The notes under the pieces were generated by a model. It was not told the DNA's origin and ran no database searches. It saw only the letters and a list, made by a program, of their open reading frames with translations. This document shows, piece by piece, positions 50,301 through 51,465 of a stretch of 64,000 bases of DNA. Numbering within the stretch: the first letter of the stretch is position 1; each line of letters begins with the position of its first letter. The DNA comes from Euglena gracilis (Eukaryota), in NCBI GenBank assembly GCA_039621445.1, contig CP154954.1, forward strand, positions 42,716,632 through 42,780,631. Reading direction: 5' to 3'. A program made the translations under genes and the position numbers.

Positions 50301-51465
50301 CAGGGCCCCGTAGATCGGGGTCAGGCTGGGCGGGTCTGCAGTGGGGGTTGGGTCGTCCTCCGCCTCTGTTGTTGTTGTGGCTGAGGAGGAGGCCGGGGCC
50401 ACGCTTCCGTCCCCGGCGCGTCCCAGAGCGCGTGGGGGGATGGCGACCGAGCGAAGCGGCCGGGGGACGATGGCCGGAGAAGGGAAGCCTGGGCGGGGGG
50501 AGCTGCAGGGTCAGGGGGACGGGGTCCGGGCTGGACCACATCGCCGGGACGTAGTCCCAGTCCCAGTTGGGGCCGGGCTGTTCGCCCTCCGGGACCTCGG
50601 CAGGCCCGGTCCCCCGCACAGCACAATGGTTTGGTGGGCATCGACGGATCCCGCCCTGGCCAGCCCCACTCCCTCTCAATGGGGTCTTCAACGTGGCCGA
50701 CCCGAATGTGTGATGGGCCGCGGCCACCGTCACGGGGGGGGGGGGGGGGCTAGATGGTCGCGCGCATTCGGTGCGAGCCTGAAGTGCCCCCCCCCCGACA
50801 GGTCAACAGCCATGCCAATCCCACACTGCCAGCAATTATCCAACGAGACAGACACATGACAAATCACCCCCGCTACCAATGTGGCCCTGGCCTGGGCTAC
50901 GTTGCGGCCTTCCGGGACGGGCCCAGGGTTCCATATAAAGGCAGGACGGAGGGTTGGACCCCCCTCTGGCCCAGCAGGGGGGGGGGGGGGCACCCCCCCT
51001 CCTGTACAGTGGCGCAGTCCTGATGACCGAATTTTGGCCTGAGGAAAGCGCCGGGCCGAAAATTTTGCACCCCAAAATCGGCCAAATATGCCAATTTTGG
51101 GGCATTTTTTGGGGGCAAAAAAAAATGGCACAAAATTTTCAGCACAAAGCACCGGAAGGGAAAATTTGACCTTTTGGGGGGGTGTCCCGAGACCCACCCC
51201 GGGGTCAGTCCGGGGGGGTGTCCATACCCCTCCACCGGTCTGGGAGGGGGGCACTCCCCCTCCTCTAGCCCATACACCCTCCTTATATCGAGCCCTGGGC
51301 GGGCCCCCACCACCGCTGGTCGTCCTCCCACTCCCGCCCCGGCTCCGGCTTCCCGTTCTGGAACCGCCGCCGCCGCTCCAGCGCCTGCAGCGTCTTCTGC
51401 CTGCCTGTCAGTTCCGGCGGTGCGCCACTGCCCACGGGCGGGGGCAGCTCGGGAGGGCCGGACAT
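8250..51465 (-). CDS. large multi-exon gene (possibly more than one) encoding an uncharacterised Pro/Gly/Arg-rich protein
   Basis: ATG 51465 lies 8 nt after a CAG acceptor ([19 protein letters not shown]). GC-rich minus-strand exon-like blocks occur near 50.3-50.6k, 46.4-46.5k ([20 protein letters not shown]), 44.5-44.7k ([16 protein letters not shown]), 43.8-44.0k, 43.05-43.16k, 41.5-42.1k, 40.6-40.75k, 39.75-39.9k, 37.15-37.36k ([20 protein letters not shown]), 34.27-34.5k, 32.1-33.0k, 24.3-24.5k, 19.0-19.1k and 12.2-12.7k. Clean AG/GT exons are at 17315-17283, 10190-10098 and 8369-8322 (or 8250). The full exon chain was not resolved. Confidence 0.55.
10098..10190 (-). CDS. exon [31 protein letters not shown]
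   Basis: Bounded by CAG and GT, 93 nt, phase 0, strong GC3 bias. Confidence 0.7.
10735..11600. repeat. compound (AATACT)n and trinucleotide satellite
   Basis: Successive AATACT, TAC, GACTAC, GACCAC, CAC, TGC, TAC and AAC runs. Confidence 0.95.
11655..12016. mobile_element. degenerate MITE
   Basis: CCCCCCAAATATAAAACCCCC at the left and several GGGGGCTTTAT(A/G)TT(T/C)GGGG copies at the right. Confidence 0.5.
12308..12582. mobile_element. hAT-like MITE forming a nonconventional intron (12303-12585)
   Basis: Ends CAGAGGTT/AATCTCTG; TSD GCTGGGCT/GATGGGCT (7 of 8); removal joins [17 protein letters not shown] in frame. Confidence 0.7.
14184..14224. repeat. (TC)n microsatellite
   Basis: Directly visible. 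Confidence 0.95.
14436..15693. repeat. (CA)n-(TG)n-(CA)n compound microsatellite
   Basis: Orientation switches at about 14483 and 15372. Confidence 0.97.
16337..16997. mobile_element. hAT-like MITE with GGATCCGGTG subterminal repeats
   Basis: TIR core GGCAAGGACAG(T/C)CA; perfect TSD GTGGAGGG at 16329-16336 and 16998-17005; left terminus mutated. Confidence 0.7.
17283..17315 (-). CDS. micro-exon [11 protein letters not shown]
   Basis: CCCTCCGCAG acceptor, GT donor, 33 nt, phase 0. Confidence 0.6.
18384..18820. mobile_element. TA-flanked MITE
   Basis: TIR GCCCCCC..GGGCAATTG; internal direct repeat CCGGCACAGCCAGGGGTGACAATTGCC; TA on both sides. Confidence 0.65.
19968..20194. mobile_element. 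MITE
   Basis: TIR CCCCCCAATAGTAGAGCGGGT and ACCCGCTCTACTATTGGGGGG. Confidence 0.7.
25235..25644. mobile_element. TA-flanked MITE (Tc1/mariner-like)
   Basis: Ends TA|C-run-TATGTCCA and TGGACATA-G-run|TA; internal AAAAGGTGTCCTCTGACCGGG repeats. Confidence 0.75.
31859..32069. repeat. (CA)n-(AAC)n-(CACACC)n
   Basis: Directly visible. Confidence 0.95.
33192..34080. repeat. short (CA)n followed by a (TG)/(TGGG) satellite
   Basis: Directly visible. Confidence 0.95.
34943..35230. mobile_element. hAT-like MITE
   Basis: Ends CAGGG(G)TTTTTTT and AAAAAAACCCTG; perfect TSD ATTCCAAC. Confidence 0.8.
35480..35975. mobile_element. hAT-like MITE with GAGGAGGCTC repeats
   Basis: Perfect TSD GTGATGTG at 35472-35479 and 35976-35983; right end CAACCCCTG intact, left end degenerate. 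Confidence 0.6.
38160..38569. mobile_element. TA-flanked MITE, same family as 25235-25644
   Basis: Colinear with 25235-25644 and has the same termini; decayed relatives at about 20360-20647 and 23247-23310. Confidence 0.75.
40110..40552. repeat. (CCCA)n/(CA)n microsatellite
   Basis: Directly visible. Confidence 0.95.
41606..41992. mobile_element. hAT-like MITE forming a nonconventional intron (41601-41995)
   Basis: 18-bp TIR CAGGGTT(C/T)GATATAAGGA; perfect TSD CATGAGGC at 41598-41605 and 41993-42000; removal gives [15 protein letters not shown]. Confidence 0.85.
44162..44468. repeat. (TACA)n microsatellite
   Basis: Directly visible. Confidence 0.98.
45881..46344. mobile_element. older hAT-like MITE
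   Basis: Ends CAGGGGCG..TTAA and TTAA..CGCCCTG; flanks GTGCCACC/ACGCCAGC (5 of 8); CTGGCTGG repeats. Confidence 0.55.
49020..49858. mobile_element. TIR element with a 6-bp TSD
   Basis: Perfect 19-bp TIR CAGGGATCCTCACACGTCC; AATTAC on both flanks; TTCCGTGA(A/T)T subterminal arrays at both ends. Confidence 0.85.
50924..51297. mobile_element. hAT-like MITE forming a nonconventional intron (50919-51300)
   Basis: Ends CAGGGTTCCATATAA and TTATATCGAGCCCTG; TSD GACGGGCC/GGCGGGCC (7 of 8); same family as 41606-41992; removal gives [12 protein letters not shown]. Confidence 0.8.

What the first reader, a model, noticed from the sequence alone, without database searches (positions are those of the whole stretch)
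50916..51305. Third exonic TIR intron; its TSD mismatch gives a direct test of the 3+5 splice register
Seen: on the minus strand the TSD copies are GGCCCGCC and GGCCCGTC. Inference: cutting 3 nt before CAG and 5 nt after CTG predicts mRNA TGG GGG CCC GTC CCG (Val), whereas a donor cut flush with the TIR predicts GCC (Ala). Unspliced RNA meets TAA inside the TIR, so removal is required for the ORF.
Basis: partly seen in the sequence, partly recalled or inferred. Interest (0 to 1): 0.72.

Follow-up and report, generated by a model that had tools for sequence, protein, structure and literature searches.

The report
Transposon-derived nonconventional intron, Euglena type
A small non-coding transposon sitting in the first coding exon of a gene is removed from the messenger RNA as a Euglena-type nonconventional intron, a known kind of intron whose suspected transposon origin this copy shows unusually clearly.

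Summary
On the minus strand a 374-nt element (51297..50924) with CAGGG...CCCTG inverted ends lies between 8-nt repeats GGCCCGCC and GGCCCGTC. It belongs to a diverged multi-copy MITE family with exactly 8-nt target-site duplications.

Two transcript contigs from different studies carry the upstream exon and both stop matching the genome at 51300, the sixth letter of the first repeat. In one of them exactly 21 letters follow before the next listed exon. That fits removal of 382 nt (element plus one repeat copy), a junction reading GGCCCGTC (Val), and a 21-nt micro-exon. The junction letter was inferred from alignment ends and letter counts, not read directly.

No cut position gives GT/GC..AG borders. 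The borders fit the published Euglena code N3-CAG...CTG-N5|purine (PMC12501133). The mismatch excludes only 2 of 9 possible cut registers, so it is a weak test of "3+5".

This is a new member of a known kind. The added value is that the 8-nt duplication equals the 3+5 spacers, and that this intron belongs to a repeated transposon family. I found neither point in seven literature searches.

The parts
51298..51305 (-). Upstream copy of the 8-nt target-site duplication (GGCCCGCC). Its first 5 letters are exon; its last 3 (GCC, 51300..51298) are the N3 spacer of the intron.
   Evidence: Sequence. RNA contigs stop matching at 51300. Registers enumerated.
50924..51297 (-). 374-nt non-coding MITE with CAGGG...CCCTG ends, a member of a diverged multi-copy family.
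   Evidence: The RNA fold pairs the two ends: MFE -215.5 kcal/mol, z -5.23, and 0 of 100 shuffles fold as well.
51281..51297 (-). 5' terminal inverted repeat arm (CAGGGCTCGATATAAGG). It contains the in-frame TAA that stops the unspliced ORF.
50924..50940 (-). 3' terminal inverted repeat arm (ends ...CCCTG on the minus strand).
50916..50923 (-). Downstream copy of the duplication (GGCCCGTC). Its first 5 letters (GGCCC) are the N5 spacer of the intron; its last 3 (GTC, 50918..50916) are the first exon codon (Val).
50919..51300 (-). Nonconventional intron 1 in the published register: 382 nt, that is the element plus 8. It reads GCC-CAG...CTG-GGCCC, and the next exon starts with G.
   Evidence: signature printed; exon ends. 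The exact cut within 0 to 6 letters of the repeat is not resolved.
51301..51473 (-). Exon 1 of the host gene, with ATG at 51465..51463. It is preceded by a C-rich pyrimidine tract and CAG, which looks like a trans-splice acceptor.
   Evidence: Pieces 51300-51474 of X8 record 17 and X1 record 2, which carry 10 and 14 further letters that lie on nothing here. Translation. The trans-splicing itself is inferred.
50898..50918 (-). 21-nt micro-exon between two nonconventional introns.
   Evidence: X8 record 17 has 21 letters (186-206) between the pieces ending at 51300 and starting at 50594. The frame stays open. The piece itself was not printed.
50596..50897 (-). Nonconventional intron 2 (302 nt): GCC-CAG...CTG-CCGAG|G. 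It has no family copies in the window, and its 8-nt flanks agree in only 4 of 8 letters (my count on the sequence).
50395..50494 (-). Nonconventional intron 3 (100 nt): GCC-CAG...GTG-GCCCC|G. Its 8-nt flanks agree in 6 of 8 letters (my count on the sequence).
41606..41992 (.). Full-length sister copy of the same MITE family with a perfect 8-nt duplication (CATGAGGC on +). On the minus strand it fits ATG-CAG...CTG-GCCTC|A. No RNA was laid on it.
53527..53948 (-). MITE-type nonconventional intron of another family in the neighbouring minus-strand gene: 422 nt, that is a 414-nt element plus a perfect 8-nt duplication.
   Evidence: Joint 53526>53949: 7 raw RNA reads from 6 starts (X21), one contig each in X1 and X8, depth 0 in the DNA-type run X20, and 9 letters that fit on either side..

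Best explanation
The feature is a 374-nt non-autonomous DNA transposon (MITE). It has hAT-like hallmarks (8-nt target-site duplication, CAGGG ends) and sits in the first coding exon of a minus-strand gene, about 160 nt after the ATG. The genome's features match a euglenid (Euglena-like).

In the pre-mRNA the inverted ends pair, bringing CAG (intron positions +4 to +6) against CTG (-8 to -6). The still unidentified nonconventional splicing machinery of euglenids then cuts 3 nt upstream of CAG and 5 nt downstream of CTG. Because 3 + 5 equals the 8-nt duplication, exactly the element plus one repeat copy (382 nt) is removed. The mRNA keeps a single repeat copy (GGCCCGTC, Val) and the frame is restored.

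Shown here:
- the transposon anatomy and its family;
- the exon boundary in RNA contigs, with the element present in DNA;
- the absence of any GT/GC..AG option.

Inferred:
- the exact cut positions, which rest on the published code;
- the junction letter, from alignment ends and the 21-letter count;
- release of the intron as a circle, from the literature only;
- the hAT affiliation, since no transposase was seen.
For: Anatomy and chance controls. The duplication length peaks sharply at 8 nt in 7 of 8 elements. Seven real pairs with at least 11 of 14 matching end letters have 7 or 8 of 8 matching flank letters, against 0.0 in 20 shuffles.

Family: one search gives blastn matches at about nine places in the window. 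One search aligns 5 copies (mean column identity 61%).

RNA: X8 record 17 (3017 nt) lies on 51474-51300, then has 21 unlisted letters, then lies on 50594-50494, 50393-50302, 46519-46431 and 44679-44560. X1 record 2 (1583 nt, another study) also ends its piece at 51300. X20 record 12 (DNA-type run) is collinear over 51178-51634.

Reading frame: open across the four exons (126 codons). The unspliced form stops at TAA.

no register gives GT/GC..AG. Registers keeping 0 to 6 repeat letters give GTC.

Folds: the ends pair, and in intron 2 exactly 3 and 5 nt are left unpaired.

Published code 5'-N3CDG-/-CH'GN5-6|R: PMC12501133 (abstract, passages, section 11). This intron meets every term of it.

A second MITE-type intron in the neighbouring gene has direct joint support in RNA and none in DNA.

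P0001 (60 aa, 96% identical) shows that another allele or strain carries the same insertion.
Against: The junction letter was never read. The joint 51300>50917 was not among the printed rows (286 joints and 20726 pieces were not shown).

Raw-read depth over the exon in X21 was low: 0.56 and 0.28 in bin 51304-51870.

X1 and X8 are only guessed to be RNA by the tool.

The DNA-type contig X20 record 12 has 6 differences from the window, of which I saw only 4. A difference at 51299 in that allele is therefore not excluded, and it would void the register test.

No spliced protein was found in either protein library, so there is no independent protein-level check.

No transposase was found among the 30 long ORFs scanned.

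The organism is coded, and Rfam gave no marker RNA in the window.
Confidence: 0.85

Rival explanations
1. The transcripts come from an allele or paralogue that never received the insertion (an empty site reading GGCCCGTC), so nothing is spliced at this place.
For: The strains carry several haplotypes here (other letters at 51369, 51392, 51397, 51402 and 51434). The printed tables do not show whether a joined form exists in the DNA-type run X20 at this place.
Against: At least three sequence versions carry the element: the window, X20 record 12 (which has 51434 A>G, also seen in both RNA contigs), and the source of P0001. The same RNA contig also lacks introns 2 and 3, which have the same border code. 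For the neighbouring MITE-type intron the joined form has depth 0 in X20 but is present in all three RNA runs.
Confidence: 0.06
2. The element is removed, but not with the acceptor at 50919/50918. The donor at about 51301 joins elsewhere, and the 21 letters in the contig come from another place.
For: The 21-letter piece was not printed. A 12-nt near-repeat (50918..50907 and 50595..50584, family D7) offers an alternative acceptor that would give the same first codons.
Against: The span 50917..50897 has exactly 21 letters and keeps the frame. The borders of both introns then fit the published code. The next piece starts at 50594 rather than 50595, as expected if the shared G was given to an aligned micro-exon.
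Confidence: 0.05
3. It is an ordinary spliceosomal (GT/GC-AG or AT-AC) intron that happens to contain a transposon.
For: Conventional GT-AG introns exist in the neighbouring gene: 4 joints read CT..AC on the + strand.
Against: None of the 9 cut positions allowed by the repeat gives GT/GC..AG or AT..AC. There is no pyrimidine tract before the acceptor.
Confidence: 0.02
4. It is a chance inverted repeat in G+C-rich DNA, neither a mobile element nor an intron.
For: The window is rich in G and C runs that give many spurious inverted repeats (50 pairs in 1.2 kb).
Against: Shuffle controls, family copies with their own 8-nt duplications, and the RNA exon boundary.
Confidence: 0.01

Closest known systems
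Nonconventional introns of euglenids (Euglena agilis / E. gracilis). Splicing code 5'-N3CDG-/-CH'GN5-6|R, PMC12501133; earlier descriptions PMC3935182, PMC4770533, PMC6221363.
   Same: No GT-AG borders. CAG at +4 to +6 and CTG at -8 to -6. 3-nt and 5-nt spacers. A purine starts the next exon. The ends pair. Direct repeats at the junctions make the cut 'slidable'. These introns occur beside conventional introns in the same region.
   Different: Nothing in the defining features differs. What is added here is that the intron is a recognisable copy of a repeated MITE family with a near-intact 8-nt target-site duplication. The papers I read treat a MITE origin as a hypothesis (passages). The one reported 8-nt junction repeat was read as double-strand-break repair (PMC4770533).
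Introner elements of Micromonas, Aureococcus, dinoflagellates and others (as reviewed in PMC11282704, passages).
   Same: Short non-autonomous DNA transposons with inverted ends and target-site duplications become introns on insertion. The duplication supplies part of the splice geometry, so the mRNA is restored.
   Different: Introners are removed by the spliceosome at GT/GC-AG sites, one of which is co-opted from a 3-nt duplication in Micromonas. Here the borders are non-canonical, the cuts are set by distance from a CAG:CTG helix, and the duplication is 8 nt.
hAT-superfamily MITEs, and maize Ds behaving as an intron. hAT features are recalled from general knowledge. Giroux 1994 was seen only as a cited reference.
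   Same: An 8-nt target-site duplication and ends beginning CAGGG (hAT-type ends are recalled as YARNG). The element is small, non-coding and multi-copy.
   Different: No hAT transposase or dimerisation domain was found in the window (0 of 30 ORFs), and no autonomous partner is known. Ds is spliced by the spliceosome at cryptic sites and usually imprecisely (recalled).
Transposon-derived non-canonical introns of Fritillaria borealis and Amoebophrya (PMC11282704 passages).
   Same: Inverted ends plus target-site duplications at non-canonical borders, with mass intron gain from MITE-like elements.
   Different: Those introns are thought to be removed by a modified spliceosome. Their border dinucleotides and duplication lengths (3-5 nt) differ.

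Membership tests
Euglenid nonconventional intron | No GT/GC-AG (or AT-AC) borders at any cut position allowed by the junction repeats | tested here: met
   9 registers enumerated, none conventional.
Euglenid nonconventional intron | CAG (CDG) 3 nt inside the 5' end and CTG (CH'G) followed by 5-6 nt at the 3' end | tested here: met
   GCC-CAG ... CTG-GGCCC. The code is taken from PMC12501133.
Euglenid nonconventional intron | A purine is the first letter of the downstream exon | tested here: met
   the next exon starts GTC.
Euglenid nonconventional intron | The intron ends base-pair and bring the two junctions together | tested here: met
   the ends pair in both the MFE and the centroid structure, z -5.23. 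Inverted-repeat arms.
Euglenid nonconventional intron | Absent from mature mRNA but present in DNA | tested here: met
   2 of 2 RNA-type contigs printed for this exon break at 51300, and DNA-type contig X20 record 12 is collinear. The 3' side rests on the 21-letter count; the joint row was not printed.
Euglenid nonconventional intron | Excised as a full-length circular RNA, after the conventional introns | not testable with these tools
   Known only from papers cited in passages.
Euglenid nonconventional intron | The host is a euglenid (or diplonemid) | tested here: inconclusive
   The organism is coded ('organism A'), and Rfam gave no marker RNA in the window. The mix of GT-AG and CAG/CTG-coded introns and the outron-like acceptor fit Euglena.
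hAT-like MITE | 8-nt target-site duplication | tested here: met
   7 of 8 letters here, and 8 of 8 in four other elements. The repeat length peaks at exactly 8 in 7 of 8 elements.
hAT-like MITE | Short terminal inverted repeats with hAT-type end letters | tested here: met
   CAGGG ends, 15 of 17 matching letters (my count). The hAT end consensus is recalled, not taken from a call.
hAT-like MITE | Small, non-coding, many copies | tested here: met
   DNA word depth is 1092.7 in the element's bin against about 34-82 in nearby single-copy bins (a rough measure).
hAT-like MITE | An autonomous partner encoding a hAT transposase with matching ends | tested here: not met
   0 of 30 long ORFs of the window hit a transposase family. 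The only hit above a curated cut-off was RVT_1. No whole genome was available, so this holds for the window only. I therefore write 'hAT-like', not 'hAT'.

The most novel reading that the evidence does not exclude
The fixed 3-nt and 5-nt spacers of the euglenid nonconventional splicing code may exist because they add up to the 8-nt target-site duplication of CAG...CTG-ended, hAT-like MITEs. Any new insertion of such an element into an exon would then be removed seamlessly at the RNA level. On this reading, families like the two seen here would be the active 'introners' that produced most euglenid nonconventional introns, and older introns such as introns 2 and 3 of this gene would be copies whose duplications and family likeness have decayed. 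If true, this would settle the origin of these introns. It would also suggest that the unknown machinery recognises the transposon ends themselves.
Probability: 0.5. Interest if true: 0.7.

Novelty: new member of a known kind. Interest (0 to 1): 0.45.

Why it matters
Nonconventional introns are the majority of introns in Euglena agilis (71.8%; abstract of PMC12501133). That 2025 paper still says their origin "remains unclear", with MITE-like elements only a suggested source (passage).

This window holds several introns of that kind that are still recognisable transposon copies. They belong to repeated families, have intact inverted ends, and carry 8-nt target-site duplications. One of them is supported by raw RNA reads.

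The equality between duplication length and the two spacers (3 + 5) explains why such insertions leave the coding sequence intact. It also turns the origin question into a countable genome-wide test.

The specific finding, the mismatch as a register test, adds little by itself. The register has already been defined genetically, and the mismatch excludes only two of nine registers.

Tried and rejected
- Whole-genome search: no genome is held for this window.
I then laid 44500-61500, as the tool advised. The sister copy at 41606-41992 therefore got no RNA test.
- The look-up of sequencing runs: no RNA holder listed among the indexed rows. The RNA-type runs I laid were guesses by the tool, plus one raw RNA run chosen by species label.
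- Protein search with exon 1 against longer proteins: 63 candidates, none at E <= 0.001.
- Exhaustive representative search: only P0001, the unspliced read-through product. No protein-level view of the junction was obtained.
- The listing of cluster members: database switched off.
- Exact search of a 28-nt exon-end stretch in metagenome contigs: 0 matches.
- Exact search of the 17-nt end motif in metagenome contigs: 23 loci. In 0 of 23 was there a partner end placed to close an element, and beyond the 7 words of the motif itself each shared at most 3 further 11-nt words with the family. These are chance matches.
- Rfam on the window: 0 families.
- Earlier notes of this scan: nothing.
- Pfam on 30 long ORFs: no transposase.
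- Host protein: not identified. Its N-terminal part is proline-rich and had no relatives.
- Considered and rejected: a conventional intron, a chance repeat, and an untranscribed MITE (see rivals).
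Full report
**1. What is in the sequence**

Read on the minus strand, the stretch has this order:
- the 8-mer GGCCCGCC at 51305..51298;
- a 374-nt element at 51297..50924 that begins CAGGGCTCGATATAAGG and ends ...CCTTTATATGGAACCCTG;
- the 8-mer GGCCCGTC at 50923..50916.

The two 8-mers differ only at letter 7. By my count on the sequence the two ends are inverted repeats, with 15 of the first 17 letters matching. One search lists them as pair I1.

The end motif (up to 3 mismatches) occurs 6 times in the window, against 0.28 expected from 100 shuffles. A window-wide scan for CAG...CTG-ended pairs with matching ends and matching 8-nt flanks gave 10 candidates, against a mean of 0.2 in 20 shuffles.

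**2. It is a transposon copy**

blastn of the element against the window finds related sequence at about nine places. One is a full-length sister copy at 41606-41992 with a perfect 8-nt flank repeat. Five copies align with a shared A/T-rich core and G/C-run-rich arms, at 61% mean column identity, so the family is old and diverged.

For 7 of 8 elements with such ends, the flank repeat is sharply 8 nt long: 7 or 8 matches at length 8 and background at lengths 5-7 and 9-12. The eighth lies in a C run and is uninformative.

Small size, no ORF, inverted ends starting CAGGG and an 8-nt duplication are the hallmarks of hAT-type MITEs. That comparison is recalled, not computed. No transposase was found among the 30 long ORFs of the window; the only hit above a curated cut-off was a reverse transcriptase. 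I therefore say 'hAT-like' only.

**3. It lies in a coding exon and is absent from RNA**

No genome was held. One call found sequencing runs of the same coded organism.

RNA-type contig X8 record 17 (3017 nt) lies on these pieces:

| Window | Record letters |
|---|---|
| 51474-51300 | 11-185 |
| 50594-50494 | 207-307 |
| 50393-50302 | 308-399 |
| 46519-46431 | 517-605 |
| 44679-44560 | 606-725 |

A contig of another study (X1 record 2, 1583 nt) has the same 51300-51474 piece. A contig of the DNA-type run X20 (record 12) runs collinearly over 51178-51634, from the exon into the element. So the element is present in DNA, and the transcript leaves the genome at the sixth letter of the upstream repeat.

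The frame from the ATG at 51465 runs through this exon. Unspliced, it ends at TAA inside the inverted repeat. The only database relative of the exon peptide, P0001 (60 aa, 96% identical), is exactly this read-through product. That shows another allele or strain carries the same insertion.

**4. The junction letter**

The joint itself was not among the printed rows (286 joints not shown), so the letter was not read. Two indirect points fix it.

First, if the mRNA read GCC after GGCCC, both alignments would have continued to 51298 or 51297. Both stop at 51300, so the next letter is not C.

Second, record 17 has exactly 21 letters between the pieces ending at 51300 and starting at 50594, and 50917..50897 is exactly 21 letters. 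With that micro-exon the frame stays open across four exons (126 codons).

One search shows how much this test can tell. Of the nine cut positions that remove 382 nt, seven (0 to 6 repeat letters kept upstream) give GTC. Only the two cuts nearest the inverted repeat give GCC. The result rules out a donor cut flush with the repeat or 1 nt from it. It is compatible with 3+5 but does not single it out.

**5. What kind of intron**

None of the nine positions gives GT/GC..AG or AT..AC. In the register with 3 nt before CAG, the intron reads GCC-CAG...CTG-GGCCC and the next exon starts with G.

This is the code that Nomura et al. defined genetically in Euglena, 5'-N3CDG-/-CH'GN5-6|R, found in 61.2% of the nonconventional introns of E. 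agilis (PMC12501133; abstract, passages and section 11 read). The CAG at +4 to +6 and CTG at -8 to -6 were noted earlier (PMC3935182 passages; PMC11282704 passages).

The RNA folds with its ends paired (z -5.23).

The next two introns of the same transcript, 50897..50596 and 50494..50395, start with the same GCC-CAG and are followed by G. Intron 2 folds leaving exactly 3 and 5 unpaired letters at its ends. Neither has family copies in the window. By my count on the sequence, their 8-nt flanks agree in only 4 and 6 of 8 letters. That is what old, decayed insertions would look like.

The piece boundaries, the C-rich tract plus CAG before 51473, and the 10 to 14 extra contig letters fit a trans-spliced 5' end as described for E. 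gracilis outrons (PMC11170887 passage). This is inferred.

The organism is coded and Rfam found nothing, so 'euglenid' rests on these features.

**6. A better-documented sister case**

In the neighbouring minus-strand gene the joint 53526>53949 skips 422 nt, which is a 414-nt element of another CAGGG-ended family plus its perfect 8-nt duplication. It is seen in 7 raw RNA reads from 6 starts (X21) and in one contig each of X1 and X8, with depth 0 in the DNA-type run. Nine letters fit on either side of the joint.

Four other introns of that gene are ordinary GT-AG, and the frame is open across all six exons. This directly shows RNA-level removal of element plus one duplication copy in this genome.

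**7. How it most likely works**

- DNA level (inferred): a hAT-like transposase inserted the MITE with an 8-nt staggered cut.
- RNA level: the inverted ends pair, and an unidentified machinery measures 3 nt and 5 nt from the CAG:CTG helix and joins the exons. By the literature, the intron leaves as a circle (cited in the passages, not tested here).
- Because 3 + 5 = 8, the mRNA regains the pre-insertion sequence.
- The C/T mismatch is a later point change in one repeat copy. Which copy changed cannot be told.

**8. Known or new**

The intron class, its border code and the MITE hypothesis are all in print.

The 2025 paper still calls the origin unclear. The 2014 paper states that no transposable elements had been identified in euglenids. 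The single reported 8-nt junction repeat was interpreted as break repair (PMC4770533).

In seven full-text searches I found no paper that shows a repeated transposon family serving as these introns. Nor did I find one that equates the 8-nt duplication with the 3+5 spacers. Subscription papers, and the supplements of PMC12501133, which I did not open, may hold it.

I therefore file the finding as a new member of a known kind, with a useful but unproven wider reading.

**9. Verdict**

Interest is moderate.

Noticed in passing
window 50898-50918 (minus strand), with 50584-50595: A 21-nt micro-exon lies between two nonconventional introns. Its first 12 letters are nearly repeated at the start of the next exon (direct-repeat family D7: 11 of 12 letters). 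All three introns start GCC-CAG-G. This could reflect a local duplication or an alternative acceptor.
   Followed up: partly
window 44680-46430 (minus strand): An intron implied by adjacent letters of X8 record 17 (605/606) has borders AC...CA. No junction repeat allows sliding, and CAG sits at +2 to +4, so it fits neither the GT-AG rule nor the N3-CAG/CTG-N5 code.
   Followed up: partly
window 52100-57168 (minus strand): The neighbouring gene has four GT-AG introns and one MITE-type nonconventional intron. The frame is open across six exons and ends in a hydrophobic stretch. The protein was not identified.
   Followed up: partly
window 58636-61296 (minus strand): An 887-codon open frame has a reverse-transcriptase domain (RVT_1, 44.4 bits against a cut-off of 29.6), presumably a retrotransposon. 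DNA word depth there is in the thousands.
   Followed up: no
window 4831-5261, 12308-12582, 28978-29621, 34943-35230, 52723-53220 (also 4214-4617): Further CAG...CTG-ended elements have 7 or 8 of 8 matching 8-nt flanks, and several start CAGGG. 4214-4617 is a 67% copy of the 53536 element. None was tested against RNA.
   Followed up: partly
window 40413-40545 and 44162-44468: A long (CA)n microsatellite and a long short-period tandem repeat. They blocked read laying over 34500-44500.
   Followed up: no
P0001 (database protein, 60 aa): The only database relative of exon 1 is a gene call on unspliced DNA that runs into the transposon end and stops at its TAA. This shows how such introns produce truncated gene predictions.
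   Followed up: yes
window 32001-34000: A stretch with strong strand asymmetry (GC 0.657, GC skew 0.364, AT skew -0.352) and open frames on all six frames, probably low-complexity repeat.
   Followed up: no
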